The translations under genes were made by a program, and so were the position numbers. Shown here one piece after another: positions 4,106 to 59,506 of a stretch of 64,000 nucleotides of DNA; position 1 is the first letter of the stretch; each line of letters begins with the position of its first letter. The notes under the pieces are model-generated. The model worked only from the letters and a program-made list of their open reading frames with translations, did not search any database and had not been told where the DNA came from. Location: the NCBI RefSeq assembly GCF_988242995.1, contig NZ_OZ547043.1; one strand, 5' to 3'.

Positions 4106-4572
4106 CCTGGCTTTTTAGCTACCAATACACTGATTTAGCTTAATTTTTCAAACCCTCTCTGCATACAATCGTTGATGAGAAAGGGTTATTGCGGAAATTA
4201 ACTTCCGAATATAAGGTGACATTATGGTAATTGAATATTGGCTCTCCAATAATGCAGGAGGAAGTGTTACAGCTAACGGAATAGCAGGCAAGGTAACAAT
4301 TCGGCAATTGGCTATTTTTAAGAATTATATTAAGTGTCATTCAATATGGTTTTTAGGAGTTTCTTTAGGTTGACAATATTTAATATTGCGTCTCCACATG
4401 CGATATTTCTTAAATATGTTTTATTATTACCACTTTTAATTCAGGGATAATGTGAGGTTATTACCCTCAAATAATATGAGATAAATAGTGCTGCAACATT
4501 GCATTTTTGCCCCGATTTATCCATGATCGAATTGTGACATTTGTCATACAACGAATAGGTTTTGTACTTACT

Positions 4573-6156: not shown

Positions 6157-6159
6157 TGG

Positions 6160-6205
6160 CATGTAGGCCTGATAAGACGCGTAAAGCGTCGCATCAGGCC
6201 TACAG
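6160..6205. repeat. REP element between convergent yegH and asmA
   Basis: Palindrome GCCTGATAAGACGCG...CGCATCAGGCCTACA typical of REP. Confidence 0.5.
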
Positions 6206-6223
6206 GACAGGTCACCTGGTAAC

Positions 6224-8077
6224 CTACATCTTCTCCAGCAACTTCTTCACATCTTTGCCATTGCGGGAATCTTTATTCCGCTCGGCCCAGTCGTTAAGAC
6301 GGCGTTTTGCTTCATCCTGTAGATGTTTACGCAGTAACTGATCCACTTGCAGGCTGTAATTAAGTTGCTGCCAGTTGCCATAAACCCGCAGCGGTACTGG
6401 CGTTTCTTTGAGGAAATCAATCAGTTTGCTTTCCCCGTTCCAGCCCCCCACGACCCGAATATCAAACTGGGTGTCACAGGTTTGATCTGCCAGATTCAAC
6501 ATGCCTTCCCCTGTCAGCACCAGCACAGGCGATTGACCTTGCATGTCGTTTAACGTCACGACGCCATCCTTCAACGTCAAATCGGTGGTAAAGCGGTCAA
6601 GACGCGTCACGTTATCGAAGTTTTCAGCGGCCTTCACATCACCACCATTACGTTCTACCGCTTGCTGAATCATCTGCTGGAAGTTCATCCCTTCCATGCG
6701 TGTATCAGTCATTTCGACATGTGCCTGCCCTTGCCAGTTGTGGCGGAATGCGTCGGCATCTATGTCAGCACCGGAGAAATCACCAGCCAGTGACATCTTT
6801 CCGGTCAACGAAATCGGATAGTTAAACGCCTTCAGAATGGTGCCAATCTCAACGTTTTCCAGCCGTGGCTGGAAGTTTATCCGCGGATTTATTGATGTCG
6901 CGTCCAACGTGCCCGGCAGTGAAACCTGTCCACCGTTAAGTTTGCCCTGCAGTTGAGTAATTTCCAGCAAACCCGACTTGTTGGTCATTTGCGTGGCAAC
7001 ATCTGTAAAATTCATTCCGCGCCAGCGCACGTTACTGGCCTGCAACAAAATATCAGCCGTAAAGCCTTGCAGTCCCTGATAGGCCGGTTCATCAATACGC
7101 GAAGAAATGACCGGGCGCGGCAACGTTGATTGGCTCTGCCCTTGCTGCGCGGCACCGTTCTCACCGTTCGCTGTTTCATTAAGGGGGATGAGGTTGTCAA
7201 GATTCAGTTGCGGGAATTGCAGTCTCAGCTGCCATTCCGGTTTCTCTGTCAACGTGACCTGTGCTTGCCCGCTCAGCGTACTGTCATTGGCGGTCAAACT
7301 AATTTGGTTAAATGAAAGGCGTTTATGTGACTCCTGCCACTGGACCTGGAAACTCCCCTGCCCCTGAATACCTTGTTTTGGTAAATCTGCACCCTGCAAC
7401 TGCCAGTTAACTTGTTCAATAGCCGCCGTTAAATCATGCGGATAATCAGAAGCATCTACCGTACCGTTAAGGGATATCGTGAGATCGCGCTGATCGCGAT
7501 TAACCCGCCCGGAGAACTCAAATGAACCACGATGTTGGGGATCTTGTTCCATTTGCAGGCGAATATTGCGGATTGTCACCTGCTCGTCATCTTCATGCTG
7601 GAACACCAGCACGCTGTCCGCCACCTTAAGACTGGATATATCAAACGACCATCCGCGATCGTCTGACAGATCCGGCAAGGTATTGTCGCGTGGTGCAACC
7701 GGGGCATCTTCACTGCGTACCGCTTCCGTCTGCGGCGTCAGTTGGATCACTGCCCCTTTTAGCATCACCTGCTTAACGCTCAGTTGATGACTCAGCAGTG
7801 GTAAAAGCGCCACGTCCAGACGCATGTTGTCTGCGCGAACCAGTGGCTGGCTCGCGCCCTGGGCAGTGAGAGACATTCGCCCGGAGAGGATACTAAGCTG
7901 CGGCCAGACGTGCCAACGCAGTGGCCCGTCGAGCTGCAATTGATAACCGCTACGTGCAGCAACTTGCTTGACCATATAGTCGCGGAAATCATTCGGATTC
8001 ACCAGCAACACTAACGCAGATAACCCGGCCACCAGCACGACCAGGAGTATCATCAGCGTCGTCAGAAATCGTCTCAT
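6224..8077 (-). CDS. asmA: Outer-membrane assembly protein AsmA
   Basis: 617-aa ORF with N-terminal TM anchor (MRRFLTTLMILLVVLVAGL); conserved position upstream of dcd. Confidence 0.9.
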   Translation of the reverse strand: MRRFLTTLMILLVVLVAGLSALVLLVNPNDFRDYMVKQVAARSGYQLQLDGPLRWHVWPQLSILSGRMSLTAQGASQPLVRADNMRLDVALLPLLSHQLSVKQVMLKGAVIQLTPQTEAVRSEDAPVAPRDNTLPDLSDDRGWSFDISSLKVADSVLVFQHEDDEQVTIRNIRLQMEQDPQHRGSFEFSGRVNRDQRDLTISLNGTVDASDYPHDLTAAIEQVNWQLQGADLPKQGIQGQGSFQVQWQESHKRLSFNQISLTANDSTLSGQAQVTLTEKPEWQLRLQFPQLNLDNLIPLNETANGENGAAQQGQSQSTLPRPVISSRIDEPAYQGLQGFTADILLQASNVRWRGMNFTDVATQMTNKSGLLEITQLQGKLNGGQVSLPGTLDATSINPRINFQPRLENVEIGTILKAFNYPISLTGKMSLAGDFSGADIDADAFRHNWQGQAHVEMTDTRMEGMNFQQMIQQAVERNGGDVKAAENFDNVTRLDRFTTDLTLKDGVVTLNDMQGQSPVLVLTGEGMLNLADQTCDTQFDIRVVGGWNGESKLIDFLKETPVPLRVYGNWQQLNYSLQVDQLLRKHLQDEAKRRLNDWAERNKDSRNGKDVKKLLEKM

Positions 8078-28875: not shown

Positions 28876-30275
28876 AGTTCTGGCGACCCGGTATTACCGG
28901 CAAACTGTTTCTGGCGATTTTCGCCACCTGCATTGTCTTGCTGATCAGTATGCACTGGGCGGTGCGTATCAGTTTTGAGCGTGGCTTTATTGATTACATC
29001 AAGCATGGTAATGAACAGCGATTACAACTGTTAAGTGATGCGCTTGGCGAGCAGTATGCGCAGCATGGCAACTGGCGCTTCCTGCGCAACAATGATCGCT
29101 TTGTCTTTCAGATCCTGCGTTCATTTGAACACGAAAATTCGGAAGATAAACCCGGCCCGGGTATGCCGCCGCACGGCTGGCGTACCCAGTTCTGGGTGGT
29201 TGATCAAAACAACAAAGTGCTGGTTGGTCCGCGAGCGCCGATTCCACCTGACGGTACACGGCGACCCATTCTGGTCAACGGTGCGGAAGTGGGTGCGGTG
29301 ATTGCCTCCCCTGTTGAGCGACTGACCCGCAATACTGATATCAATTTCGATAAACAACAGCGGCAAACCAGCTGGCTGATTGTCGCCCTGGCTACGTTAC
29401 TCGCGGCACTCGCCACCTTTCTGCTGGCGCGTGGTCTGTTGGCCCCGGTCAAACGGCTGGTGGACGGCACGCACAAACTGGCGGCGGGCGATTTCACTAC
29501 CCGCGTGACACCCACCAGTGAAGATGAACTGGGCAAACTGGCGCAAGACTTCAACCAGCTTGCCAGCACGCTGGAGAAAAACCAGCAAATGCGGCGCGAT
29601 TTTATGGCCGATATTTCTCACGAACTGCGTACGCCATTAGCGGTGCTGCGCGGTGAACTGGAAGCCATTCAGGATGGCGTGCGTAAATTCACGCCGGAGA
29701 CGGTGGCGTCTTTACAGGCGGAGGTCGGTACACTGACCAAACTGGTTGACGATCTCCATCAGTTGTCGATGTCTGATGAAGGCGCTCTCGCCTATCAAAA
29801 AGCACCGGTAGATTTGATCCCACTGCTGGAAGTAGCGGGCGGCGCATTTCGCGAACGATTCGCCAGCCGTGGCCTGAAACTGCAATTTTCCCTGCCAGAC
29901 AGTATTACCGTATTTGGCGATCGCGACCGTTTAATGCAGTTATTCAATAACTTACTGGAAAACAGCCTGCGCTACACTGACAGCGGCGGTAGCCTGAAAA
30001 TCTCTGCCGAGCAGCACGACAAAACGGTGCGACTGACCTTTGCCGACAGCGCGCCGGGCGTCAGTGACGATCAGCTACAAAAATTGTTTGAACGTTTTTA
30101 TCGCACCGAAGGTTCCCGCAACCGAGCCAGCGGCGGTTCCGGGCTGGGGCTGGCGATTTGCCTGAACATTGTTGAAGCACATAATGGTCGCATTATTGCT
30201 GCCCATTCGCCTTTTGGCGGGGTAAGCATTACAGTAGAGTTACCGCTGGAACGGGATTTACAGAGAGAAGTATGA
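28872..30275 (+). CDS. baeS: Envelope-stress sensor histidine kinase BaeS
   Basis: 467-aa ORF; HAMP region, H-box ([11 protein letters not shown]), C-terminal ATP-binding G-boxes. Confidence 0.9.
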
Positions 30276-30994
30276 CCGAGTTACCAATCGACGAGAACAC
30301 ACCGCGTATTTTGATCGTGGAAGATGAACCAAAGCTGGGGCAGTTGCTCATTGATTATCTGCGTGCTGCGAGCTATGCGCCGACGCTTATCAGCCACGGC
30401 GATCAGGTACTGCCGTATGTGCGCCAGACACCACCGGATCTGATCCTGCTGGATCTGATGCTCCCTGGCACCGATGGCCTGACGCTGTGCCGGGAAATTC
30501 GTCGTTTTTCTGACATTCCGATCGTGATGGTGACAGCAAAAATCGAAGAGATCGACCGCCTGCTGGGGCTGGAAATTGGCGCTGATGACTACATCTGCAA
30601 ACCGTACAGCCCACGGGAAGTGGTAGCGCGCGTCAAAACCATTTTGCGCCGTTGCAAACCGCAGCGTGAGTTGCAGCAACAGGATGCTGAAAGCCCGTTG
30701 ATTATCGACGAAGGTCGTTTTCAGGCTTCCTGGCGCGGAAAAATGCTTGACCTGACGCCTGCGGAATTTCGTCTGTTGAAAACGCTCTCTCATGAACCAG
30801 GAAAAGTGTTCTCCCGCGAGCAATTGCTCAATCATCTTTATGACGACTACCGCGTAGTAACCGACCGCACCATCGACAGCCACATTAAAAACCTGCGTCG
30901 CAAGCTGGAATCTCTCGACGCCGAACAGTCCTTTATCCGTGCCGTTTACGGCGTCGGTTACCGCTGGGAAGCCGACGCCTGCCGCATCGTTTAA
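30272..30994 (+). CDS. baeR: OmpR-family response regulator BaeR
   Basis: 240-aa ORF; receiver domain (ILIVEDEP...LDLMLPG) plus winged-helix output domain. Confidence 0.9.
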
Positions 30995-31173
30995 CATTTT
31001 TACCTGCCGGAGAAGGCATTCACGCCGCATCCGGCAACATTATCCCGCGCATGGTCAGCAAACTGACATTATCTCTCCGCCCTGGCAACCGCCTGAAAAT
31101 CGCTCATACTTTAATCGGTAAACAGTTCTTTTAGATGCTGTTTTCGATACGCAATTTCAATCAAGGAGTCATT

Positions 31174-31506
31174 ATGGCTGGTTGGTTTGAACTCAGTAAG
31201 AGCAGTGATAATCAGTTCCGGTTTGTGCTAAAAGCGGGCAATGGTGAGACTATCCTCACCAGCGAGCTATATACCTCAAAAGCCTCTGCGGAAAAGGGTA
31301 TCGCGTCGGTGCGTAGCAACAGCCCGCAAGAAGAACGCTATGAGAAAAAAACGGCAAGCAACGGCAAATTCTATTTCAATCTGAAAGCCGCCAATCATCA
31401 AATTATCGGCTCCAGCCAGATGTACGCCACCGCGCAATCTCGTGAAACCGGAATTGCCTCCGTTAAAGCCAATGGCACAAGCCAGACGGTGAAAGACAAT
31501 ACGTAA
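31174..31506 (+). CDS. yegP: UPF0339-family protein YegP (tandem DUF1508 repeats)
   Basis: ORF track 31135..31506; start at ATG 31174 with AAGGAG RBS (MAGWFELSKSS...), giving 110 aa with an internal two-fold repeat. Confidence 0.85.
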   Translation: MAGWFELSKSSDNQFRFVLKAGNGETILTSELYTSKASAEKGIASVRSNSPQEERYEKKTASNGKFYFNLKAANHQIIGSSQMYATAQSRETGIASVKANGTSQTVKDNT

Positions 31507-31653
31507 TTACGATGCCGGGCGTGGGTTGTTGGCGTCCGGCGCTTTACCAGCTCCCCCCTACAGCGCTACAATGCCCGCCCTTAAAGTGGGGGCACTCCCC
31601 TGGCCGCTTCATCAGGTGAAGCGGATCTGACCTGTCATCAGAACGAGAGAATT

Positions 31654-33015
31654 ATGTTTAAACCGGAACTCCTTTCCCCGGCGGGAACGCTGAAAAATAT
31701 GCGTTACGCTTTCGCTTATGGCGCAGATGCTGTTTATGCGGGCCAGCCGCGTTACTCCCTGCGTGTGCGCAACAACGAATTTAACCACGAAAATCTTCAG
31801 CTCGGCATCAATGAAGCCCACGCGCTGGGGAAAAAGTTTTATGTCGTGGTCAACATTGCACCGCACAACGCCAAGCTGAAAACCTTTATCCGTGACCTGA
31901 AACCGGTGGTGGAAATGGGGCCGGATGCGCTGATTATGTCTGATCCAGGGCTGATTATGCTGGTGCGCGAGCACTTCCCTGAAATGCCGATCCATCTCTC
32001 AGTACAGGCTAACGCCGTGAACTGGGCGACGGTGAAATTCTGGCAGCAAATGGGTCTGACCCGCGTGATCCTCTCTCGCGAACTGTCACTGGAAGAGATT
32101 GAAGAGATCCGCAATCAGGTGCCAGATATGGAGATCGAAATCTTCGTTCACGGCGCGCTGTGCATGGCCTACTCCGGTCGCTGCCTGCTCTCTGGCTATA
32201 TCAACAAGCGCGACCCGAACCAGGGCACCTGCACCAACGCCTGCCGCTGGGAGTACAACGTCCAGGAAGGGAAAGAAGATGACGTTGGCAACATCGTGCA
32301 CAAGTACGAGCCGATTCCGGTGCAAAATGTTGAGCCGACGCTGGGTATCGGCGCACCAACTGACAAAGTGTTTATGATCGAAGAAGCCCAGCGTCCGGGC
32401 GAGTATATGACCGCGTTTGAAGATGAGCACGGCACTTACATCATGAACTCGAAAGATCTGCGCGCTATCGCCCACGTTGAACGCCTGACCAAAATGGGCG
32501 TGCATTCGCTGAAAATCGAAGGCCGTACTAAATCTTTCTACTATTGCGCACGCACCGCACAGGTTTACCGTAAAGCTATCGATGACGCCGCTGCGGGCAA
32601 ACCGTTCGATACCAGCCTGCTGGAAACTCTGGAAGGTCTGGCGCATCGTGGCTATACCGAAGGTTTCCTGCGTCGTCATACTCACGACGATTATCAGAAC
32701 TACGAATACGGTTATTCAGTTTCTGACCGCCAGCAGTTTGTTGGTGAGTTTACCGGTGAGCGCAAGGGCGACCTCGCGGCGGTAGCGGTGAAAAATAAAT
32801 TCTCCGTTGGCGACAGCCTTGAGCTGATGACGCCGCAAGGCAACATTAATTTTACCCTTGAGCACATGGAAAACGCCAAAGGTGAAGCTATGCCGGTCGC
32901 ACCAGGCGATGGTTATACTGTGTGGATCCCGGTGCCGCAGGATCTTGAGCTAAATTACGCGCTGCTGATGCGTAATTTCTCCGGGGAAACCACGCGTAAC
33001 CCCCACGGTAAGTGA
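31654..33015 (+). CDS. yegQ: Peptidase U32-family protein YegQ (TrhP-type)
   Basis: 453-aa ORF beginning MFKPELLSPAGTLKNMRYAFAYGADAVYAG; Cys-rich U32 motif region. Confidence 0.9.
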   Translation: MFKPELLSPAGTLKNMRYAFAYGADAVYAGQPRYSLRVRNNEFNHENLQLGINEAHALGKKFYVVVNIAPHNAKLKTFIRDLKPVVEMGPDALIMSDPGLIMLVREHFPEMPIHLSVQANAVNWATVKFWQQMGLTRVILSRELSLEEIEEIRNQVPDMEIEIFVHGALCMAYSGRCLLSGYINKRDPNQGTCTNACRWEYNVQEGKEDDVGNIVHKYEPIPVQNVEPTLGIGAPTDKVFMIEEAQRPGEYMTAFEDEHGTYIMNSKDLRAIAHVERLTKMGVHSLKIEGRTKSFYYCARTAQVYRKAIDDAAAGKPFDTSLLETLEGLAHRGYTEGFLRRHTHDDYQNYEYGYSVSDRQQFVGEFTGERKGDLAAVAVKNKFSVGDSLELMTPQGNINFTLEHMENAKGEAMPVAPGDGYTVWIPVPQDLELNYALLMRNFSGETTRNPHGK

Positions 33016-33047
33016 TTAATTTCGATTATTTTTCCCGGATGGAAAAT

Positions 33048-33069
33048 TCTTAGAAACCGATCACATACA
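33048..33069 (+). promoter_or_regulatory. Putative CRP site of the cyaR promoter
   Basis: TTCTTAGAAACCGATCACATAC has a good TCACA right half-site and a weaker left half, centred about 41 bp upstream of the inferred cyaR 5' end; cyaR is known to be CRP-activated. Confidence 0.35.
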
Positions 33070-33099
33070 GCTGCATTTATTAAGGTTATCATCTGTTTC

Positions 33100-33186
33100 G
33101 CTGAAAAACATAACCCATAAAATGCTAGCTGTACCAGGAACCACCTCCTTAGCCTGTGTAATCTCCCTTACACGGGCTTATTTTTT
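33100..33186 (+). ncRNA. cyaR: CyaR (RyeE) Hfq-dependent sRNA
   Basis: 87 nt recognised from memory as CyaR: GCTGAAAAACATAACCCATAAAATGCTAGCTGTACCAGGAACCACCTCCTTAGCCTGTGTAATCTCCCTTACACGGGCTTATTTTTT, ending in an intrinsic terminator. Confidence 0.85.
33160..33186. other. P2-type attachment-site core (27 bp) overlapping the cyaR 3' terminator
   Basis: AATCTCCCTTACACGGGCTTATTTTTT is the reverse complement of the P2 att core AAAAAATAAGCCCGTGTAAGGGAGATT as recalled; it abuts the ogr end of the prophage. Confidence 0.7.
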
Positions 33187-33250
33187 ACGCGTAACACAAT
33201 GAAATAAAAGGATTTATTTCTGGTCACGTCCACACATTGACCACATCGAC

Positions 33251-33278
33251 AAAAAAGCCCCTCGACTGAGGGGCTTCC
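33251..33278 (-). terminator. Intrinsic terminator downstream of ogr
   Basis: Hairpin GCCCCTC-GACT-GAGGGGC followed by TTTTTT when read on the minus strand. Confidence 0.6.
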
Positions 33279-33287
33279 TGTTTGTAA

Positions 33288-33506
33288 TTACATCCACATA
33301 ATTTGCTGCCCTGACGGCAACGGGTGCGGTCTTACGGCGTGGACTTCTCCCGGCTTCACGATGTATCGCTGTACCGACTCATAAGTGATGAATGTGGCGC
33401 TGCAATTCACGTTCTGACACTGGTGATAACGCTCTTTTGTCGTGTCAGTGATATAGCGGCTTGTACGCGCATGTGCGGCATGCTGGCATAAAGGACAATG
33501 AAACAT
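33288..33506 (-). CDS. ogr: Late-gene transcription activator Ogr (Cys4 zinc finger)
   Basis: ORF track 33288..33569; start at ATG 33506 (MFHCPLCQHAAHARTSRYITDTTKERYHQCQNVNCSATF...), giving 72 aa. Confidence 0.9.
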   Translation of the reverse strand: MFHCPLCQHAAHARTSRYITDTTKERYHQCQNVNCSATFITYESVQRYIVKPGEVHAVRPHPLPSGQQIMWM

Positions 33507-33587
33507 CGCGAGCACCTCTTCCGGTTTTGTTGATGGTGCCATTTTAGTTAATTTATCCTTATAAAACAAACAGATAAATAAATTACA

Positions 33588-34751
33588 TCACTCATCATCT
33601 TCTGTTTCGTACTCCACATCAGAAAGCCTGACCTCAAGCTCTAAGGACGTCGTGAAGCCGCTATTATTCAGAAAATGTGTCACCTTAGTGATTGTCCAGT
33701 CCTGCTCGTCTATGACGCGCTTAAAGCCTGATACTTTAACCGGTGTTTCCGTGTAAATATCAGCACGACCGGTAGCCAGGCTGATGGAGAACTCCGCAAC
33801 GCCCCGTTGCAGTTTATCCCACTTCGCCTGAGCGGCACGCATGGCCTGTGCTTTCGTGGCATATACCGTGGTCAGGGCAAAAACGTTGTCAGCCTCACCG
33901 GCCATGTATTCACCTTCGCGCGCTTCCGGTACTTTTGGCGCTTTCTTCTGCCTGACCGGTTTTGCTTTCGGGTGCTCCAGTGCGCGCAGGTGTTTTTCTT
34001 TCTTTTTGCGTTTCAGTTTTACCTTCTGCTTTTGCGGCTTCGGGTCTTTGGTGTGTAACCACTTTGCCGTTACGCCGGTATAGGCTCCACGGTCAGCAAT
34101 CGCAAAATGATGGCGGTCGCCGTCGCTGCGGGTGATGGTGACCTGCGGGATTTTTTTACCGCTGGCCGTCACCCCCTGCCCCGCTTTGAGAAACAGCAGT
34201 TTTCCCATTTTTACCGACACCTCACCGCCGTTGCGTTCTGCAAGACGGGTCAGGAATTTCGCATCAGACTCCTGCGACTGGTCGATGTGCGGGATTTTAA
34301 TTCCGGCCAGTGACGGCGCGACACTGGCTTCCAGCTTGTTACGGGAGGCTATCGCCTCAACAATCGCACCGAGCGTGGTGTCATGCCATGAGCCTTCACG
34401 GCGGGAATTGAGCGTCCCGCGAAAATCTGCACTCCGGGCGCGGATGGTGACCACATCCGGTGCGCCCCGGTGTTCAACCTCATCAACGGTAAATTTCCCT
34501 TTGCATACCAGGGCAAAACCTTTCCAGCCGATATACACCGTCAGAACAGCACCACGAACCGGCAGTTCGACCTGCCCGTCGGCATCGTTCAGTTCAATAT
34601 CAAGCTGGTCAGCCTCAAAGCCCCGGTTATCCGTCAGGGTCATGCTCATCAGACGGTCGCTGATATTGCCGGTAATATCCCTGCTGTCGAGCATCAGCAT
34701 GTAATCCGGCGTCAGCGTACTGCCTGCATCAAATGTCAGCGCATCCAGCAT
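33588..34751 (-). CDS. D: P2 gpD-like tail protein
   Basis: 387-aa ORF in the conserved position after ogr; lysine-rich central segment. Confidence 0.85.
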   Translation of the reverse strand: MLDALTFDAGSTLTPDYMLMLDSRDITGNISDRLMSMTLTDNRGFEADQLDIELNDADGQVELPVRGAVLTVYIGWKGFALVCKGKFTVDEVEHRGAPDVVTIRARSADFRGTLNSRREGSWHDTTLGAIVEAIASRNKLEASVAPSLAGIKIPHIDQSQESDAKFLTRLAERNGGEVSVKMGKLLFLKAGQGVTASGKKIPQVTITRSDGDRHHFAIADRGAYTGVTAKWLHTKDPKPQKQKVKLKRKKKEKHLRALEHPKAKPVRQKKAPKVPEAREGEYMAGEADNVFALTTVYATKAQAMRAAQAKWDKLQRGVAEFSISLATGRADIYTETPVKVSGFKRVIDEQDWTITKVTHFLNNSGFTTSLELEVRLSDVEYETEDDE

Positions 34752-39890: not shown

Positions 39891-40257
39891 CCGTTTAACT
39901 CCGTGGTTAATGGGTGCAACTATTTTCTGTTGTGCAGAGCATGAGACGCTATTTGCCCTGGATGGTCAGTGGATGAAACAACAGATACAGAAAAGGCGGG
40001 CAATTCGCCCGCATTTCCTAATTTGTACTAACCCAGCTTCCAACTGACAATTTACGTAGCCAAAAAGCTATCAAGTCTGGCAGACTGATTTGTACGAGGT
40101 GTGGATAACCATAATTATGTGCATGCTAACATCACGGTGCATGAGTCAATCGGGTCTATGCCAAAGAATTACGCCTTGATTGACCATAGATTGCTTGCCC
40201 TTGAATTTGACCATTCCAATAAAATGAATTATGATAATCGTCAAATGGAGGTGCACA

Positions 40258-40902
40258 ATGATCAAACACACCGCAGCAGAAAGGGAAACCAACACTTCAG
40301 CTAAGCTGAATGAATACCAGTTGAACCTTCTGAAAAGAATTAACAACCTCGCTATTTCCCTGATGCCTGAATTTGAAGACAAAAACCAGGCAATTAATGC
40401 TATCACGCTGGATGATAGTTCACTGATGCAATTGCTCTACACCGTTCAACTCGAACAGAAGACTCGTGTCAATGACTACGAACTACGTAAAGTGCGCCGT
40501 CGTCGCGAAAATCTGGAACGATTTTATCGTGGGCTTCAGGAGTTAGGCGGTACGCTAAAGGTAAATGACGTGGTCGATATTCTTGGAATCACCCGCCAGG
40601 CGATCAACATTCGCGTTAAGAAGAACAAGCTTTTAGCATTCAAGCAGAACGGTGATTTTATTTTCCCGAAATTTCAGTTCACAGATAACGGGCTGATTCC
40701 CGGCTTTGAAGACGTAATGGCGGCATTTGACGAGAATACCCATCCAATGCTGAGGTTGGGTGTGCTGAAATCACCAATAGAGGTTAATAGCGAAGGCCTG
40801 AAAAAGACGCCGATTCAAATCATGCAGGACGGCGCTAAAAATAGTGAACTTAGTCTGGCTATCCGTGCCGCTAAACAGTTCGGAAATCATGTATCCAGTT
40901 AA
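40258..40902 (+). CDS. Hotspot cargo: HTH protein with C-terminal MbcA/ParS (DUF2384)-like toxin-binding region; putative antitoxin or regulator
   Basis: ORF track 40231..40902; ATG 40258 has a GGAGG RBS, giving 214 aa. Central HTH-like segment (VVDILGITRQAINIRVKKN); C-terminal SPIEVNSEGLKKTPIQIMQDG...LSLAIRAAKQFG resembles the MbcA/ParS toxin-binding domain as recalled; not in the P2 core. Confidence 0.45.
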   Translation: MIKHTAAERETNTSAKLNEYQLNLLKRINNLAISLMPEFEDKNQAINAITLDDSSLMQLLYTVQLEQKTRVNDYELRKVRRRRENLERFYRGLQELGGTLKVNDVVDILGITRQAINIRVKKNKLLAFKQNGDFIFPKFQFTDNGLIPGFEDVMAAFDENTHPMLRLGVLKSPIEVNSEGLKKTPIQIMQDGAKNSELSLAIRAAKQFGNHVSS

Positions 40903-40908
40903 TTGTTT

Positions 40909-40940
40909 TAAAAAGAGGGGCTAGCCAGCCCCTCTTTGGT
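40909..40940. terminator. Bidirectional intrinsic terminator between the convergent cargo genes
   Basis: Hairpin AGAGGGGCT-AGCC-AGCCCCTCT flanked by T-rich runs on both strands, lying in the 38-bp gap between the two stop codons. Confidence 0.6.
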
Positions 40941-41651
40941 TTACATTGGTTCTGGCGTAATTTCGAATCCAAGCAGTTCTTCGAACATCTCTTCACCTGA
41001 CATCGTTCCTTTGTGCCACCCTTTAGGGAAGATACCTTCGTCATTTTCGATGTAACTGGCATAAGGCACCATCCCCTGAGGGGTATCGGTAAAGGCTGGT
41101 GTACTATCCGGTCGTTCCCAAAAGGCATAACAGCGTTTATAGCGTTTATGCCTTGAGGTATAGGCTATCCCGTCATAGTCACGCCCGAAATGTGTATAAA
41201 GATGTTCCATTAGCCATTGAGTAAAAGTGTAATCCTCGTTCTCTAAGCTATCCAAAGGAATATGTAACAACTCACAGAGCGCTACAACATCGATCACTTT
41301 CACTGGCCTCATGACATCCACAGAGCACATATAGTGTTGTGAAAGTACCGATTCAGGATAAGAAATCGTCCCTTCGAGATGGAGCAAACGCCCATAAGCT
41401 TCTGCCGCCGCCGTTAACGCAGAGTCAGAGGCATACCATACCGCCACACATCCCCCTGGGGGGTTGTATCGCCCACATTCATTTTCCTCAATTGGCGCTC
41501 TGAAGTTGATTGCGCTTTCATACAACGCCCTTTGATGACGCTTCAAAAGACCAGAGCCTGGTTGAATGTCAATCGCCGGAATACGTCCAGATTTATTTTT
41601 TGCAGCAATTCCTTGTGCAACAATATTTTTTTCAAATGTCCATTTGGTCAT
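40941..41651 (-). CDS. Hotspot cargo: RES-domain protein (putative NAD+-consuming toxin)
   Basis: ORF track 40941..41699; ATG 41651 has an AAGGAG RBS, giving 236 aa. N-terminal CGRYNPPGGCVAVWYASDSALTAAAE matches the RES signature GGRWNPP...Y.A.S...A..E (Arg, Glu); later DGIAYTSRH supplies the conserved Ser. Confidence 0.55.
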   Translation of the reverse strand: MTKWTFEKNIVAQGIAAKNKSGRIPAIDIQPGSGLLKRHQRALYESAINFRAPIEENECGRYNPPGGCVAVWYASDSALTAAAEAYGRLLHLEGTISYPESVLSQHYMCSVDVMRPVKVIDVVALCELLHIPLDSLENEDYTFTQWLMEHLYTHFGRDYDGIAYTSRHKRYKRCYAFWERPDSTPAFTDTPQGMVPYASYIENDEGIFPKGWHKGTMSGEEMFEELLGFEITPEPM

Positions 41652-42066
41652 TTTTACTACTCCTTCTATAAACAGATTAAGCCATAGGCTCCTCTCCATA
41701 TTGATTGAAAATAATCCCTACCGTGCTTGCCCGGCAGGGGGTATGAGAACATGTGTATCTCAATCTCGATTATACCAAGCAAATTTTCTATTTTTCGGAA
41801 ATTTAGAGAGTTTTTTTAATGCTTCGCATGCCTTCTCGATGTATTGATGGGGCTGAAAAGAAGAAATAACGCAGGAAGTTTTACGGAAAGGAGAACTATA
41901 AAGATTTTTTTCAAGTGAATTAGAAATAAGAACTTCGCAGGATACTGCATTTTTAGTGAAGATGGGTTGAGTTTCTCAGCAAGAGTCCCGCGAGAGCCGT
42001 ATTGACAGCATGCATGACTCGGAGATTATTCCCCATGCAGGATGGTACACCAATGCAAGAGTTGGT

Positions 42067-42255
42067 TTACGCAAATGATTGGATGATCGCGATTACCGAC
42101 CGTACATTGCGCAAATAACGTTCTGCGTCGATGCTATTAAGATGCCCCGACCACACCGTACGACGGACGCCGTAGTGATCCGAGCTTAAGAATAGATAAT
42201 CTTTTCTCTCCGGATTCACCGTTCGCAGTGCGTTTTCCATAGCTGTCGCAAGCAC
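42067..42255 (-). CDS. Small hypothetical ORF in the Z/fun-equivalent region
   Basis: 62-aa ORF (MLATAMENALRTVNPERKDYLFLSSDHYGVRR...) without a recognisable RBS; may be a gene remnant. Confidence 0.2.
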   Translation of the reverse strand: MLATAMENALRTVNPERKDYLFLSSDHYGVRRTVWSGHLNSIDAERYLRNVRSVIAIIQSFA

Positions 42256-42345
42256 AATACTTCCGCTACAGGCACAGAGCGGACTGTCAGATTAGGTTTT
42301 ACTCTGTGCCATAGATGAGTAATCTCACACCAGATCTAATACGAT

Positions 42346-42924
42346 TTATTGTGGCATTTCAGGCCATTCTATATCCGGAGCATCTTCCGGCTGAACGCGA
42401 TTCAGTAGCACACGGTATTTTTTCCAGTGTGTCAGGCTTAACTTTTCTTCCTCGGTAGCCATATCTAAATCGACAGCATCCTGCAGCGTGGCAATAATTT
42501 CACCTGCATATGCAATCAGCTCTTTCTTCTGAGAGTCAGCCGCTCTGACAAGCGCATCACGCTCTGCATTCTCATCATTCACCCACGCATTTCCGTTCCA
42601 TTTCTGATAATCCCCATCCGGGGAAATGGCTGTCACGTCTGGAGGTAATGCGCCAAGTTCAGAAATATAAATGGCTGCTCCCGTTTTCGTTTCGTAGACA
42701 GTCTTTCCGCGATGATCTTCCATCAACTCCCATTTTATTTCATCTGCATTGAAAACGGCTGCATAACCAGCCGGTATATCAGGCGGCGCAATATCTGTAC
42801 TGTTTGCAGGCAGACCTGTATACGGTGGAATATACGCGTCACTTTCCCCAATAAATTCATTGGTTCCATCAAGTAAATTAAATACGCGGATAGTTTGTGC
42901 TTCTGCACTCATTCTGAAAGCCAT
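42346..42924 (-). CDS. G: Tail fiber assembly chaperone (gpG/Tfa-like)
   Basis: 192-aa ORF immediately downstream of and overlapping the tail fiber gene stop; conserved position. Confidence 0.7.
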
Positions 42925-45542
42925 TATGCAAGCCTCACAATATAGTTAAATGCGATGTTTTTTACGGTATTTTCTGTATTACCTGTAGCATTAACGGTAA
43001 TAGAGTGCCCGTGTGAGCCAATAGCAACCGTGTGTGAATGTGCACCAATACCAACAGTATGGTTATGTGCTCCAATGTCGACTGTATGTGCATGATTGCC
43101 TGATGAACTTGTAGTCGTAGCACCTTTATCACTTCGCGGAACACCATAATCTGCACCGCCTGATTGCACGCTCACAGCAAAACCGACGGTATGTGTATGA
43201 TTGCCAGAAGTATTGGTTGATTTTGTGCCGTGGTTAAACGTACTGACTGTTTTTGTCCCGTAATCAAATGAACTGGTTGTTTTCGTTCCCAAATCCGTAT
43301 TTGACGCACTGGCGCTGTGAGTATGCGATTTAATCCCGTCCTGTTCCTGTGACAATACGGCACGCCCACTGGCAGGTTTGCCCTTGATTGTCCAGCCGCG
43401 CATATCAGGAATAACACCTGAAGGATAGGCAACAGCCAGTTTCGGATATGCAGCCTTATCAAACGTCTGCCCCTGCATAATTGCATAGCCCGCAGGTGGT
43501 GTATCTGATGGCCACGGCAACGGAACACCTGGCGGAAACGCTTCAATATCTTTCGTCCCGTCAAACGTTACGCCATTAATCGCCCTTGCCGTTTTCAGCT
43601 TTGTAGCTGTAGCCGCATTGCCGGACAGTTCGCCTGAAAGACCGGCGCTGAAGGTTTGTTTCGCCGCCCATGTCTGAGCTTCGTCGATAATTGGCACACG
43701 TCTTGTCGTGATCGTGCGGCTTCCCGGATTTCCTGAAATACGCACCATAAAAAAGCGGTAGTTCGCTTTACTTACAGTGCTGCGCCATACATGCATTGAG
43801 CGCCCAGTACCGGAATCATCACTCGGACCAACTGCGATGTTTATCAGGTTGCCATCAATGACGCCCCAGTCCATACCGTCGGGAATATTGGTCATGTTAT
43901 CAAGCCGAACGGTTATCAGACTGCCCGGCACAAAGTCGTGGGTCTGCCAGTCCAGGCTGGTGAGTTTTGCCACTGCACCGCCGATACCCAGATTCAGGGG
44001 AAGTGAATACGAGGTGTAGACTTCCCGCCATTCGCTCCACGAGCTGCCGGTATAGACGCGCTCAAACGTGCGACCTTTAAGGGTTGCACCTGTTCCGGCA
44101 GTTGTATAACGCTGCCATACGTTAACACCATCAAAGCGCCTCAACACTTCCAGAATACCGAGGACTGTCACGCCGTTTCCGTCCAGTATTGGACCGTTGG
44201 TCGCTTTACCTGTAACGCTGTAAATACCTGGTGAAGTCACATCATTCAAATCCCCGTCGTAATAACGACTCTCTGACTGATGACCGACTCTTAACCACGG
44301 TTCCCACTGCGGATTTGATGCATCCCAGCTTGCCGCAAGGCAGCGGACATACATATTTCCACGGCGAGTGGTATAACGTTGCGTTCTTCCATAATTCCCG
44401 CCTTCGAGGATCTCAAGCGTCCCCTGAGCAAAGCCGCCTTCCTCTGGATAATTGCGTTCATATGAAGCTATAGCCGAGCTACTGTTACGCCATAAACCAA
44501 GATGTTCGGCGGCTCCAAGCGTATTCAGGTCTATAGTCGTACTCAAAGGGCGGGTAGCTGATTGAGTGTGACGCCATACGCCCCATGGACCATCAGTACC
44601 ATTCCACTGATTGGCGAGTTTACGCATGTATACATTGCCGTCTCTCGTGATAAAGCGTTGCGTGCCTGCAAAATTGCCGGCAGCAAAAACCTCAAGCACA
44701 CCGACAGCATTATCTTCCGGGAAATTTTTCTCCAGTGTTGCGTTAGTTGAGGTAGCTTTAGACCAGATCCCCAGATAAGCCTTAACGGGACCAAATGTAT
44801 TCAGATCAGCATCAACCGGCATTTCGCCGTTGTTTTTCATAAACGTCAGGCTGGTAACGCCAACATTGTCCAGAAAAGCGTCCTTATCTGGAATATCGCC
44901 ACCGTTCTGGTCTTTCTGCAGACGTTTCTCAGCATTGTCATAGGCTGCTTTTACTGCCTTTGGCGTTGCCGCCAGCTTTTCACTGGTGCTGTTTGTTGCA
45001 CTGCTTAACTGAGTAAAACCTTTTTCTGTCAGCGTGGCGTCAGGATGGCGGCGGGACTGCTCATGCTCTGCGATTTTGTCATCGACGTAATCCTGCGTCG
45101 CCATCACCGTGCTGGCATCAATACTCAGCTCAACGGACGCCACGTTGCTGAGAATAATAACCATGCGGCAGGTCTGCGCACGTCCGGAGCCTTCAGCCAG
45201 TTCTGGCTTATAGCTTTCTGCCATGTTGGATACCGCAATCAGTGTTCCGGCATCGTCATACAGACCAAGCTCACGCATCCAGAAGCCGCCCACTTCGGGC
45301 GGTACAACCAGTTCAGCCACGATATAGTTTTTATTCTTGTTATCCACGCTGACTTTATTCAGAGCGTGACGCCAGACCTCATGCACCAGTTTCGTCTGAC
45401 CGGCATCCGGCACCGGCAATTTGCCATTACCGTCACCCACGGCCATTGCAGACAGGTTTACTTTTTTCCCGCCGGGGACAGTGGCGGCTGCCAGCTTTGC
45501 GGCTCCGGCAGTAGTGATAACGGTTTTAAATTTCGTGCTCAT
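42924..45542 (-). CDS. H: Tail fiber protein gpH, mosaic, with His-box-rich C-terminal receptor-binding region
   Basis: 872-aa ORF; P2 H-like N-terminus ([40 protein letters not shown]...); C-terminal repeated GNHxHTV/GxHxH motifs. Confidence 0.85.
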
Positions 45543-45552
45543 TGTTTCTCAC

Positions 45553-46083
45553 TTATCCGGGATAAACAGTAATAACATCACCATCACAGACCACACCGCC
45601 TGTATACAGATAGCCGGGAATGTCCTGGATAATGTTCAGGCCGATAAGGTGGCGACTTGCGGGTTTGGCATCGGCAATCAGCCGTTCCATTTCCAGATAC
45701 ATCTCCTCCGTGATACCGCTTTCCAGCACACCGATATCAAGGCGAAAGGTTCCGGGCGGGTCGTTTGTCTCCCACCATTCCTTTACGTTAATGAGATAGC
45801 CGAGCGGCTCCACCACACGCCGGATTGCGCCGACAGTGCCTTTATGACAATGAATGAAATACGCATCGCGGATAACGGCGCGTTTTGTCGCTTCCGGCCA
45901 CTTTTCATCCCACCTGTCGACCGAAAACGCCCACGCCAGCCACGGCAGCAGATTTGCCGGACAGGTATCCGGGTTCCACAGCTCACGAATACTGACCGGC
46001 GTTTTTTCAATTTCCGCACAGGCTTTTGCGGCAGCAACTTCAAGCGGTGATGAGCCGGTCGGCAGCAGTCGCGAATCACTCAT
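45553..46083 (-). CDS. I: Baseplate protein gpI
   Basis: 176-aa ORF between J and H. Confidence 0.85.
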   Translation of the reverse strand: MSDSRLLPTGSSPLEVAAAKACAEIEKTPVSIRELWNPDTCPANLLPWLAWAFSVDRWDEKWPEATKRAVIRDAYFIHCHKGTVGAIRRVVEPLGYLINVKEWWETNDPPGTFRLDIGVLESGITEEMYLEMERLIADAKPASRHLIGLNIIQDIPGYLYTGGVVCDGDVITVYPG

Positions 46084-57554: not shown

Positions 57555-59387
57555 TCAAACAGAGCCCTGTTCAAAAACAGTATCAAAATATGGTAGGAGA
57601 GGATAAGCACACAGAAAGAAAATCAGGATGCATGCATATGTCGTTGTTTCATCGTAACAAGCATTAGTATATAAATTACCATGTGCTAATTTATGTCTTA
57701 AGGTTGCCCCACTCTTTCTGTTAAAAAGAACATCGATAGTCAAAACAAGATTTTTAGAAAAGATACTTTCCAAATCATCTCTGCATTTATCTAGAAGCTG
57801 AGAAATACTTGTTGACTCCTCTAATCCCTTATCCAAATATCTAGTAGCATCCTTTCCACTAAGCTCATAATAATAACGAACCATACCTTCCATTTGTGGT
57901 ATTAAAAGATAAGCTGCACTGATGTAATCTCCCTGCCATAATTTGTAAAAGCCCAAATTAAAAATCTCCCTAAACTCCGGCTTGACAATTGGACTAGTTG
58001 TAACCAATTTAACGAATGTTGACAACGTCAAGCCATGTTCTTGAGAAAGTACATAGCGAGCAGGTTCAAAGACACCGTTTACAAAAATCTTATGAGTAAT
58101 CTCGAAATTTCTTAGATATTGATCAATAACAACATCATCACTCATATCTTTTTTATTATCCAACGGCGGGATTGTATATATCTTACGCCCACTCTCATCA
58201 TTAATTTCTGTTCCAACAAAACTAGAGAATAAACTTTTTTCTGATAATCTTAAAACTTGTTCCCTCATGCTTTCAATATTTTCAATCGGTGTTTCACTCA
58301 TTAAAACTTTGAATATATCGGGCAAAGAACGCCCCGTCAGTTTTTTTTCACTTTCAGCAACCAAGTCACTAATATCAATAGAATGGCTTAAAGTGACATA
58401 TTCACTCCTTACTTCTTCTCTCAAATTAGCAAGTTGTTCCTTTAAATCTTCTATCTGTTGGCTATCACCACCGTACTGTCTTAATTCAGAGATAGCTGTT
58501 CTTAACCAAGAGATCTTACCCATATTATCAGGTCGTTCTGTTGCAACTTTAATAGTAATATTTGCAGATGCCAGTTTACATCTCTTGGCACGTTCATACT
58601 CACCATTTTTTTCATAAATAACTGCACTTGTCATATAAAGTGATTTTACAGCATCATAATATTTTTTATCTTTATGCTGCTCAGCCATCTTCTCAGCATT
58701 TTCCGCATACTGCAGATTATACCCATCAAAATCACGCACCATAAACCAAGTCAAATTATTGAAACCTTCAAAGATTAATCTTTCATTTTGAATACTATAA
58801 AGAGAATGAATGGCATTTTTAATCGCCATGTTTCCTTCTGATTTTCTAGGGTAGACCATTTTATTAATGTGCAAAGCCCTAGCAATATAATCACGAGCAA
58901 AAATAAAGCAATTTAAATCACTTTCATCCATGCTTTCGTTTTTTATTATTAGCTTTTCAATTGCTATATTTAGCATTTCAGCATAGGAATCAATTGCTTT
59001 AATTGCCACGTCTTTATTTTTCCGATTATTACACCAAACAACATCATATATTCTTGATAACAAAAATGGATTGGTTATTTTTTGAGAAACATATAAAAGA
59101 CAGTCATTCACCTGCTCATCAAAATCTTCAGGCAATATTGATCTTTTATTACCCCAAATCATTTGGGGTTCAAATGCTGGAGTGTTGTTAACAACTTGCA
59201 AATTGAAACTATATAGCATACCAAAAAGAGATGCTAATTTTTTCTCTTTGGGGTTTTCTGATGACTCAGCAATCCCATCCAGATATTTTTTTATTTTATG
59301 TGCATGAAATGTAACTGGTATATACATAAAAACACTATAATCTAGTGTTTCAAGCTCTTCCCTTGTAAGAACAAAGATATCATTCAT
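57555..59387 (-). CDS. Hotspot cargo: large AT-rich protein of unknown family with C-terminal HEPN-like Rx4H motif; candidate anti-phage effector
   Basis: ORF track 57555..59492; likely start ATG 59387 with AAGGTGA RBS (MNDIFVLTREELETLDY...), giving 610 aa. Occupies the position of P2 tin/old; codon usage visibly AT-rich; no Walker A, TOPRIM or RT motif seen; LRHKLAHG near the C-terminus. Confidence 0.6.
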   Translation of the reverse strand: MNDIFVLTREELETLDYSVFMYIPVTFHAHKIKKYLDGIAESSENPKEKKLASLFGMLYSFNLQVVNNTPAFEPQMIWGNKRSILPEDFDEQVNDCLLYVSQKITNPFLLSRIYDVVWCNNRKNKDVAIKAIDSYAEMLNIAIEKLIIKNESMDESDLNCFIFARDYIARALHINKMVYPRKSEGNMAIKNAIHSLYSIQNERLIFEGFNNLTWFMVRDFDGYNLQYAENAEKMAEQHKDKKYYDAVKSLYMTSAVIYEKNGEYERAKRCKLASANITIKVATERPDNMGKISWLRTAISELRQYGGDSQQIEDLKEQLANLREEVRSEYVTLSHSIDISDLVAESEKKLTGRSLPDIFKVLMSETPIENIESMREQVLRLSEKSLFSSFVGTEINDESGRKIYTIPPLDNKKDMSDDVVIDQYLRNFEITHKIFVNGVFEPARYVLSQEHGLTLSTFVKLVTTSPIVKPEFREIFNLGFYKLWQGDYISAAYLLIPQMEGMVRYYYELSGKDATRYLDKGLEESTSISQLLDKCRDDLESIFSKNLVLTIDVLFNRKSGATLRHKLAHGNLYTNACYDETTTYACILIFFLCAYPLLPYFDTVFEQGSV

Positions 59388-59506
59388 CGTTTTCACCTTT
59401 TTCAGTATAAATTTGCACGCATTATTATTAGCAACATAATCATCAATAGTTAACACATGCAGATAGACAGCAATTTTACTATTATGCAACAAATTAAATC
59501 AGATGT

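What the first reader, a model, noticed from the sequence alone, without database searches (positions are those of the whole stretch)
42346..45542. Mosaic tail fibre: P2-like N-terminus joined to a His-box-rich receptor-binding tip, plus cognate chaperone
The 872-aa H protein starts like P2 H (virion-attachment part) but is much longer than I recall P2 H to be. Its C-terminal ~100 aa contain repeated GNHxHTV/GxHxH motifs (GNHTHTVG...[36 protein letters not shown]), reminiscent of the metal-coordinating His boxes of T4-type long tail fibre tips. Together with the downstream Tfa-like chaperone this indicates horizontal exchange of the host-range module.
Basis: partly seen in the sequence, partly recalled or inferred. 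Interest (0 to 1): 0.45.

Follow-up and report, generated by a model that had tools for sequence, protein, structure and literature searches.

The report
Mosaic P2-type prophage tail fibre
This is the tail-fibre gene of a P2-like prophage in E. coli. Its host-recognition tip and the matching assembly chaperone were swapped in from the T4/lambda family of fibres, which is a real but long-known and common kind of phage gene shuffling.

Summary
On the minus strand, 42924-45542 encodes an intact 872-aa H protein and 42346-42924 a 192-aa Tfa-type chaperone.

H is built from three modules, not two:
- **aa 1-202** match canonical P2 H at 85% (P2 H is 669 aa). Nothing after that matches canonical P2 H.
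- **aa 203-666** are a shaft of tandem knob-like domains. Many peduoviruses share it at 96% nucleotide identity, and T-even gp37 proteins at about 60% amino-acid identity.
- **aa 667-872** are homologous to the solved T4 gp37 receptor-binding tip (2XGF, E = 1.8e-77, 64% identity) and to Ur-lambda Stf (60%).

The tip has six HxH motifs. All 12 histidines are invariant in 118-119 of 119 aligned sequences, while the apex loop (aa 785-816) is hypervariable. G is 65% identical to lambda Tfa and matches P2 G only over its C-terminal half (39%).

DNA breakpoints define a cassette of about 1.18 kb (42370-43544). P2-type sequence resumes in the last eight codons of G. The same apex loop sits on Mu-like and lambda-like prophage fibres.

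Ninety-seven complete E. coli genomes carry this H+G at 96-97%, and Peduovirus P24A7b has the same architecture. The receptor is unknown.

The parts
42924..45542 (-). Gene H, tail fibre, 872 aa, intact ORF
   Evidence: ORF; PF12571, PF03406, PF07484; PHROG tail-fibre families
45090..45542 (-). H aa 1-151: P2-type N-terminal baseplate-attachment domain (PF12571)
   Evidence: E = 3.7e-57; 85% identical to P2 H aa 1-204
44913..45035 (-). H aa 170-210: Phage_fiber_2 repeat (PF03406). It contains junction 1, where DNA similarity to canonical P2 ends at window 44937 (aa 202)
   Evidence: It also matches Mu S (5YVQ/8JU3) aa 110-176
43545..44936 (-). H aa 203-666: middle shaft module. It is absent from canonical P2 H. 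P2SIDE7-type peduoviruses share it at 96% nt, and T-even gp37 (Shigella phage JK23) at about 60% aa
44547..44804 (-). Knob-like repeat K1 (aa 247-332)
   Evidence: K1/K2 local alignment z about 30. AF2 model pLDDT 75.7. Foldseek hits to the knob-domain fibres 5EFV and 6CL5. NCBI names homologues 'pyocin knob domain-containing'
44271..44534 (-). Knob-like repeat K2 (aa 337-424)
43983..44252 (-). Probable third knob-like repeat K3 (aa 431-520). It shares only the GxLEV...QRYTT...W..W motif
   Evidence: z about 2, weak; beta-rich in the AF2 model
43545..43625 (-). H aa 640-666: conserved linker [23 protein letters not shown]. This is junction 2, where the different tips are joined
   Evidence: Residue differences from the E. 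coli alleles cluster here
42370..43544 (-). Exchanged host-range cassette: H aa 667-872 plus nearly all of G. It is lambda stf-tfa type (71-79% nt to Ur-lambda)
43329..43544 (-). H aa 667-738: collar/D10-like domain (Pfam Collar PF07484 covers aa 672-719)
   Evidence: aligned to T4 gp37 807-881
42927..43328 (-). H aa 739-872: needle (D11-like) domain with six HxH motifs (aa 740, 782, 817, 826, 835, 844) and the conserved C-terminus [15 protein letters not shown]
43095..43190 (-). H aa 785-816: hypervariable apex loop, the presumed receptor contact. It is flanked by the GNHTHTV and GNHAHTV His-box codons, which form a 34-nt direct repeat (43079-43112 and 43184-43217)
   Evidence: It corresponds to the T4 gp37 tip subdomain 932-959 (PMC6957217)
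42346..42924 (-). Gene G, Tfa-type tail-fibre assembly chaperone, 192 aa
   Evidence: PF02413 at E = 3.3e-40; 65% to lambda Tfa, 98% to P24A7b G, 29% to T4 gp38, 39% to P2 G over aa 95-192 only; Mu gpU 5YVQ_B at E = 2.7e-10
42262..42369 (-). Right-hand junction: the last 8 codons of G plus about 84 nt downstream, where 83% identity to P2 and P2SIDE7 resumes

Best explanation
H and G are the tail fibre and its assembly chaperone of a P2-like prophage. The prophage is inserted next to yegQ in an E. coli chromosome. The fibre is a three-module mosaic produced by recombination at two conserved linker motifs.

Module 1 (aa 1-202) is the P2-family N-terminus, which anchors the trimer to the baseplate.

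Module 2 (aa 203-666) is a shaft of two or three tandem knob-like domains plus a beta-rich domain. A large subgroup of peduoviruses and some T-even gp37 proteins share it.

Module 3 (aa 667-872) is a T4 gp37 / lambda Stf-type receptor-binding tip, made of a collar domain and a needle. In the needle, each of six HxH motifs from the three chains would form an octahedral metal (iron) site along the axis. The needle ends in a 30-residue hypervariable apex loop that contacts the receptor.

Module 3 arrived together with its cognate lambda-Tfa-type chaperone as one cassette of about 1.18 kb. In this chaperone family, the variable N-terminal half recognises the tip and the conserved C-terminal half drives trimerisation.

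Shown here: homology of every module, the breakpoints, invariance of the histidines, variability of the apex, and presence of the same tip on Mu-like and lambda-like prophage fibres. Inferred: trimer formation, iron binding, chaperone dependence, and that the apex loop sets host range. The receptor is not known. T4 gp37 uses OmpC and LPS glucose, and Ur-lambda Stf is linked to OmpC and O-antigen. The apex here is unrelated to both.
For: - ORFs are intact.
- Pfam finds PF12571, PF03406 and PF07484 in H, and PF02413 in G.
- The PDB sequence search puts H aa 664-872 on T4 gp37 tip 2XGF at E = 1.8e-77.
- BLASTP segments: P2 H covers only aa 1-204 (85%); T4 gp37 807-1026 matches at 64%; Ur-lambda Stf 523-774 matches at 60%. 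G is 65% to lambda Tfa, and 39% to P2 G over its C-terminal half only.
- P2SIDE7 H is 96% identical over aa 1-673, then switches to a P2-H-like tip with a P2-G-like chaperone.
- DNA breakpoints lie at window 44937, 43545 and 42369.
- The junction motifs are visible in alignments.
- Differences from 97%-identical E. coli alleles cluster at aa 181-225 and 631-670.
- All 12 HxH histidines are present in 118-119 of 119 aligned sequences, while apex-loop conservation is 0-30%.
- Peduovirus P24A7b has the same stems and a wholly different apex loop.
- The same apex loop occurs on a Mu-like prophage fibre (L009) and on a lambdoid remnant (L011). The cassette DNA is 82-84% identical from window 43517 onward.
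- The knob-domain assignment rests on an AF2 model (pLDDT 75.7), Foldseek hits to 5EFV and 6CL5, and source names in the homologue search.
- The role of HxH iron sites and the gp37 domain boundaries come from PMC6957217 and PMC6116203. The Tfa modular model comes from PMC9608196, citing North et al. 2019.
Against: - No experiment supports any step. Metal binding, trimerisation and receptor use all rest on homology.
- The single-chain AF2 model of the tip was unusable (mean pLDDT 52.5), so the fold claim depends on 64% sequence identity to 2XGF.
- This needle has six HxH motifs against seven in T4. The site equivalent to T4 HTH-915 reads FNH-G here, and the exact correspondence of the 'down' strand motifs differs between the HMMER and MAFFT alignments.
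- The third knob repeat is weakly supported (z about 2).
- PGAP annotates the 97%-identical gene in some genomes as three pseudogene fragments, although the ORF there is intact.
- The direction and order of the exchanges cannot be read from these data.
Confidence: 0.9

Rival explanations
1. Vertical divergence: the long H is simply an old, fast-evolving lineage of P2-family fibre, with no horizontal exchange of the tip and chaperone.
For: Colinear full-length relatives exist within the Peduoviridae. P24A7b is 76% identical in amino acids, and 97 E. coli prophages are 96-97% identical in DNA.
Against: Identity profiles change abruptly. Identity to P2SIDE7-type phages is 96% nt up to window 43545 and undetectable beyond it. 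P2-type identity returns at 42369. The tip is closer to the fibres of Mu-like and lambda-like prophages (90-95% aa, same apex loop) than to most peduovirus tips. G matches lambda Tfa over its full length but P2 G only over the C-terminal half.
Confidence: 0.03
2. Programmed host-range switching: the tip and chaperone are part of an invertible segment (as in Mu G or P1 C with Gin/Cin) or of a diversity-generating retroelement, and are not a fixed recombinant.
For: The Phage_fiber_2 region matches Mu S. The Tfa family includes Mu U, whose gene lies in the invertible G segment (my own knowledge). The apex loop is hypervariable among homologues.
Against: There are no inverted repeats of 18 nt or more anywhere in 41600-45700. 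There is no second, oppositely oriented tip or tfa copy downstream of G: 41700-42345 holds only a 62-aa ORF. No invertase or reverse-transcriptase gene lies next to the fibre genes; the neighbouring ORFs are a RES-domain gene and an HTH gene. The only local direct repeat is the pair of His-box codon stretches, 34 nt at 79% identity.
Confidence: 0.02
3. Decayed, non-functional fibre gene: the prophage is defective and H is a pseudogene. PGAP's three 'incomplete' fragments for the same gene in several genomes could suggest this.
For: In AR_0089 and other genomes, PGAP annotates three partial pseudogene pieces under the aligned H region.
Against: The 872-codon frame is open in the window and in AR_0089 and 1217KP, with the first stop at codon 873. 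In 1217KP the same gene is annotated as one intact CDS. Substitutions are concentrated in the linkers, not scattered as frameshifts or stops. All flanking P2 tail genes (I, J, W, V, FI, FII, T, U, D) are present as intact ORFs.
Confidence: 0.05

Closest known systems
Bacteriophage T4 gp37 distal long-tail-fibre tip (PDB 2XGF) with its chaperone gp38
   Same: The collar and needle of H aa 663-872 are 64% identical to gp37 807-1026, including the C-terminal [15 protein letters not shown] and four consecutive HxH boxes on the returning strand. The apex loop occupies the position of the gp37 tip subdomain 932-959, which carries the OmpC/LPS contact residues (PMC6957217).
   Different: There are six HxH motifs here against seven in T4. 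The apex loop sequence is unrelated. The upstream 660 aa are P2-type and knob-type, not the gp37 shaft. The chaperone is only 29% identical to gp38. The phage is temperate and has a P2-type baseplate.
Ur-lambda side tail fibre Stf with Tfa
   Same: This is the closest classical cassette. The 3' part of stf plus tfa is 71-79% identical in DNA across the cassette. The Stf tip is 60% and Tfa 65% identical in protein. The gene order is the same, with tfa immediately downstream.
   Different: Ur-lambda Stf has eight HxH motifs and a much longer apex insertion. It attaches to a siphovirus tail through an unrelated N-terminus.
Canonical P2 H (669 aa) and G (175 aa)
   Same: The N-terminal 202-204 aa match (84% nt, 85% aa). 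The genomic position between I and the Z/fun hotspot is the same. The last codons of G and the downstream flank match.
   Different: There is no detectable similarity after aa 204. P2 H has no HxH motif at all. P2 G matches only the C-terminal half of this G, at 39%.
Peduovirus P24A7b tail fibre (NC_049390, YP_009877362) and its assembly protein
   Same: The three-module architecture is the same. Its H is 874 aa and 76% identical, its G is 98% identical, and the cassette DNA is 90.6% identical.
   Different: The apex loop (aa 785-816) is completely different, and part of the knob region (aa 415-501) is too diverged for blastn. Receptor specificity therefore probably differs.
R-type pyocin fibres (PDB 6CL5/6CL6) and Staphylococcus phage phi11 gp45 (5EFV): tandem knob domains
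   Same: The AF2 model of aa 225-638 gives Foldseek hits at E of about 1e-6 to 1e-7 to these knob-bearing fibres. Source databases name homologues 'pyocin knob domain-containing'.
   Different: Sequence identity is 12-14% and TM-scores are low (0.24-0.26), because the domain arrangement in a single-chain model differs. The pyocin fibre ends in a lectin-like domain with one HxH iron site, not a gp37-type needle (PMC6116203).

Membership tests
P2-family tail fibre (gpH) | N-terminal tail-collar fibre domain (PF12571) homologous to P2 H | tested here: met
   PF12571 at E = 3.7e-57 over aa 1-151; 85% identity to P2 H aa 1-204
P2-family tail fibre (gpH) | Position in a P2-type late operon: V-W-J-I-H-G, followed by a variable locus and FI-FII | tested here: met
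   ORF order; colinear with the P2 and P24A7b annotation
P2-family tail fibre (gpH) | C-terminal receptor-binding part homologous to P2 H aa 205-669 | tested here: not met
   No BLASTP or blastn match to canonical P2 H after aa 204. Family membership therefore holds only for the N-terminal module
T4 gp37 / lambda Stf-type receptor-binding tip | Sequence homology to the solved collar and needle (2XGF), including the C-terminus | tested here: met
   E = 1.8e-77 over aa 664-872 against chain residues 24-242; 64% identity
T4 gp37 / lambda Stf-type receptor-binding tip | An array of HxH motifs conserved among homologues | tested here: met
   Six motifs; all 12 His present in 118-119 of 119 aligned sequences; 0 of 20,000 shuffles reach six
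T4 gp37 / lambda Stf-type receptor-binding tip | Octahedral iron sites formed by the HxH motifs in an intertwined trimer | not testable with these tools
   Only a single-chain AF2 model was possible, and it was unusable (pLDDT 52.5). Testing needs expression and metal analysis, or a multimer model
T4 gp37 / lambda Stf-type receptor-binding tip | Binding of OmpC and/or LPS through the apex subdomain | not testable with these tools
   The apex loop aa 785-816 is unrelated to those of T4 and lambda. The T4 contact residues 933-953 (PMC6957217) have no counterparts here
Tfa / Caudo_TAP tail-fibre assembly proteins | Caudo_TAP domain (PF02413) with a conserved C-terminal region | tested here: met
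   E = 3.3e-40 over aa 72-192; Mu gpU 5YVQ_B at E = 2.7e-10; phrog_105 at E = 1.3e-89
Tfa / Caudo_TAP tail-fibre assembly proteins | Encoded immediately downstream of the fibre, with a variable N-terminal half that tracks the tip type | tested here: met
   The G start overlaps the H stop. The N-terminal half matches lambda Tfa (65% over the full length) but not P2 G. Tip and tfa are contiguous in Mu-like and lambdoid loci
Invertible host-range segment (Mu G / P1 C type) | Inverted repeats flanking the variable fibre part, plus an alternative tip and chaperone copy | tested here: not met
   No inverted repeats of 18 nt or more in 41600-45700; no second tip or tfa ORF

The most novel reading that the evidence does not exclude
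The apex loop aa 785-816 ([28 protein letters not shown]) may specify a receptor different from those of T4 gp37 and Ur-lambda Stf. It may circulate as a ready-made tip-plus-Tfa cassette among P2-like, Mu-like and lambda-like prophages of E. coli. Three unrelated tail types would then compete for one still unidentified surface receptor.
Probability: 0.5. Interest if true: 0.25.

Novelty: new member of a known kind. Interest (0 to 1): 0.15.

Why it matters
It matters little for basic biology. Exchange of tail-fibre tips together with their chaperones among P2, Mu, P1, lambda and T-even phages has been textbook knowledge since the early 1990s (Haggård-Ljungquist, Halling and Calendar 1992, cited). 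This allele is common in sequenced E. coli.

Its practical value is modest. The junction coordinates (the [17 protein letters not shown] linker and the last codons of G) give clean splice points for retargeting P2-based particles or tailocins. The apex-loop allele, shared by three prophage types, could be used to identify a receptor.

Tried and rejected
- **Single-chain AF2 model of the tip** (aa 660-872, 28-sequence alignment). Mean pLDDT was 52.5 and pTM 0.20, so it was unusable and I ran no fold search on it. The fold claim rests on sequence identity to 2XGF.
- **NCBIfam scan** of H, G and the cargo ORFs gave no hits.
- **PDB sequence search with the middle region** gave no hit even at E = 10. 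The knob assignment needed the AF2 model and Foldseek, and the TM-scores there are low.
- **Invertible-segment or DGR idea.** Rejected because there are no inverted repeats and no alternate copy.
- **Pseudogene idea**, raised by PGAP's fragment annotation. Rejected because the frame is open.
- **Papers not held.** I could not read Haggård-Ljungquist 1992 (PMC206541) or Casjens and Grose 2016 (PMC4969182). Statements about them rest on citations in other papers and on my own knowledge.
- **tRNA scan** of the window found none. I did not map the attachment site.
Full report
**Observation**

The ORF scan finds an 872-aa ORF at 42924..45542 on the minus strand. It is followed directly by a 192-aa ORF at 42346..42924, whose start overlaps the stop of the first. 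I count six HxH motifs, at aa 740, 782, 817, 826, 835 and 844. Shuffling the protein gives a mean of 0.53 such motifs, and none of 20,000 shuffles reaches six. Canonical P2 H is 669 aa, so the protein is indeed longer.

**Context**

- The window is an E. coli-type chromosome. Positions 30000-34000 (annotated baeS, baeR, yegP and yegQ) are 98.7% identical to complete E. coli genomes.
- From about 33.3 kb onward it carries a P2-like prophage: D, U, T, E, FII, FI, a variable locus, then G, H, I, J, W, V, S, R, lysis genes and head genes.
- This order is colinear with the annotated P2 and Peduovirus P24A7b records.
- GC content falls from about 0.58 in the neighbouring baseplate genes to 0.44-0.52 across H and G.

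**Anatomy of H**

Pfam finds the P2-type N-terminal fibre domain PF12571 (aa 1-151, E = 3.7e-57), one Phage_fiber_2 repeat (aa 170-210) and a Collar domain (aa 672-719).

Pairwise BLASTP and blastn against reference phages resolve three modules:

- **Module 1 (aa 1-202).** It is 84% (nt) and 85% (aa) identical to canonical P2 H. Similarity to P2 stops at window 44937, inside the Phage_fiber_2 repeat (…[10 protein letters not shown]).
- **Module 2 (aa 203-666).** It has no counterpart in canonical P2 H. It is 96% identical to a large set of peduoviruses, including P2SIDE7/NC_070906, 10W, P22H1 and Yersinia phages vB_YpM_22 and vB_YpM_50. Those phages then continue with a P2-H-like tip and a P2-G-like chaperone.
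- **Module 3 (aa 667-872).** It begins just after the conserved linker [23 protein letters not shown].

**Module 2 is a knob-domain shaft**

- Module 2 contains an internal duplication: aa 247-332 against aa 337-424, local alignment z of about 30. A probable third, much weaker copy follows.
- An AF2 model built on 21 sequences (mean pLDDT 75.7) hits the Staphylococcus phage phi11 receptor-binding protein (5EFV), related staphylococcal fibres and the R1 pyocin fibre (6CL5) at E of about 1e-6 to 1e-7.
- The pyocin-fibre paper lists the pyocin fibres and phi11 gp45 (5EFV) as carriers of trimeric knob domains (PMC6116203).
- Source databases name many homologues 'pyocin knob domain-containing'.
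- The same module occurs at about 60% identity in the distal long-tail-fibre subunit of a T-even phage, Shigella phage JK23.

**Module 3 is a gp37/Stf-type tip**

- It matches the crystallised T4 gp37 receptor-binding tip (2XGF) at E = 1.8e-77. It is 64% identical to gp37 807-1026 and 60% identical to Ur-lambda Stf 523-774.
- According to PMC6957217, the gp37 needle holds seven iron atoms coordinated by histidines. It consists of a stem (882-931 and 960-1009) and a tip subdomain (932-959) that carries the LPS and OmpC contact residues.
- In the alignment, the window protein keeps the collar, both stem strands and the C-terminus. It has six HxH motifs where T4 has seven. The equivalent of T4 HTH-915 reads FNH-G here.
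- The segment that replaces the T4 tip subdomain (aa 785-816) is unrelated in sequence.

**Conservation test**

- A search with aa 650-872 found 1,730 proteins at E of 1e-10 or better.
- In an alignment of 119 sequences (the window tip, 115 of these hits with complete C-termini, and T4 gp37, Ur-lambda Stf and P24A7b H), each of the 12 histidines of the six HxH motifs is present in 118 or 119.
- The lone His-771 is not conserved, and the apex segment shows 0-30% conservation.
- P24A7b, the closest characterised phage, has identical stems and a completely different apex loop.

**The chaperone and the cassette**

- G is a Caudo_TAP protein (PF02413, E = 3.3e-40).
- It is 65% identical to lambda Tfa over its full length, 98% to P24A7b G and 29% to T4 gp38. 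It matches P2 G only over aa 95-192, at 39%.
- It also matches Mu gpU in the solved fibre-chaperone complex 5YVQ.
- This fits the modular picture of Tfa proteins: a variable N-terminal half specific for the fibre tip, and a conserved C-terminal trimerisation half (PMC9608196).
- At the DNA level, lambda-type similarity runs from 43541 to 42360. P2-type similarity resumes at 42369, in the last eight codons of G, and continues about 84 nt downstream.
- The exchanged unit is therefore about 1.18 kb (42370-43544) and contains the tip and essentially all of the chaperone gene.

**Direct evidence for exchange**

- The same apex loop ([11 protein letters not shown][D/N][14 protein letters not shown]…) is found on fibres with unrelated N-termini.
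- One lies in a Mu-like prophage, behind Mu gp45/46/47/48-type baseplate genes (L009). Another lies in a lambdoid tail-gene remnant upstream of a run of biosynthetic genes that I read, from my own knowledge, as the bio operon (L011). Each has a Tfa gene immediately downstream.
- The cassette DNA is 82-84% identical to the window from position 43517 onward.
- In the 97 complete E. coli genomes that carry the full H+G at 96-97% identity, the few amino-acid differences from the window cluster at the two linkers (aa 181-225 and 631-670). The tip is identical. That is the pattern expected if these linkers are repeatedly used as crossover points.

**Rivals**

- **Invertible segment or diversity-generating element.** This is excluded as far as sequence can show. 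There are no inverted repeats of 18 nt or more, no alternate tip copy, and no invertase or reverse transcriptase nearby.
- **Pseudogene.** PGAP annotates the near-identical gene as three fragments in several genomes. This does not fit, because the 872-codon frame is open in all copies I checked.
- **Purely vertical divergence.** The abrupt identity steps contradict it.

**Comparison with what is known, and verdict**

Horizontal transfer of tail-fibre segments among P2, Mu, P1, lambda and T-even phages is the subject of Haggård-Ljungquist et al. 1992. I could not read that paper; it is cited. Recombination hotspots in peduovirus fibre genes are reported repeatedly, for example in PMC8986868. 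The relationship between the gp37 tip and lambda Stf, and between gp38 and Tfa, is classical; this rests on my own knowledge and on the comparisons.

The object is a common allele of a well-understood kind. What remains unknown is the receptor recognised by the apex loop.

Interest is low (0.15). Novelty: new member of a known kind.

Noticed in passing
window 40231-41699: The variable locus between G and FI is the position of Z/fun in P2. Here it holds a RES-domain protein (40941..41699 -, PF08808 at E = 1.5e-12; PGAP calls the homologue 'RES family NAD+ phosphorylase'). A 223-aa ORF with an excisionase-like HTH (40231..40902 +) converges on it, with a hairpin at 40912-40937 between them. No PADLOC hit. 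In strain 1217KP the same slot instead holds an AAA ATPase plus a DUF4435 protein.
   Followed up: partly
window 57555-59492 (-): A 645-aa ORF lies between the head gene Q and a 774-aa ORF that I take to be replication gene A by its size and position (not tested). This is the tin/old position in P2. It matches the PADLOC candidate defence family PDC-S39 (E = 2.9e-84) and phrog_5183, and is probably a prophage-borne anti-phage gene.
   Followed up: partly
L008 (NZ_CP032265.1) 4079-6697, homologous to window 42924-45542: RefSeq/PGAP annotates the intact 872-codon H gene of several E. coli genomes as three 'incomplete, partial in the middle of a contig' pseudogene fragments. This looks like an annotation artefact caused by the mosaic protein.
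   Followed up: yes
window 43079-43112 and 43184-43217: A 34-nt direct repeat (79% identical) is formed by the codons of the two GNHxHTV His boxes that bracket the hypervariable apex loop. It could serve as a short homology handle for swapping the loop alone, as the window-versus-P24A7b difference suggests.
   Followed up: partly
window 43545-44936 (H aa 203-666); protein P0063: The knob-domain shaft module of this temperate P2-type fibre is about 60% identical over its full length to the distal long-tail-fibre subunit of a T-even-type phage (Shigella phage JK23, on a 168-kb contig). Exchange with virulent T-even phages therefore also involves the shaft, not only the tip.
   Followed up: no
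window 31654-34751: The prophage's ogr/D end abuts yegQ. In total, 1,232 of 5,426 complete E. coli genomes match at least 80% of window 30000-34000, including a 'phage late control D' gene. This suggests that this site often holds P2-like prophages or their remnants. I did not map the att site, and no tRNA is present in the window.
   Followed up: partly
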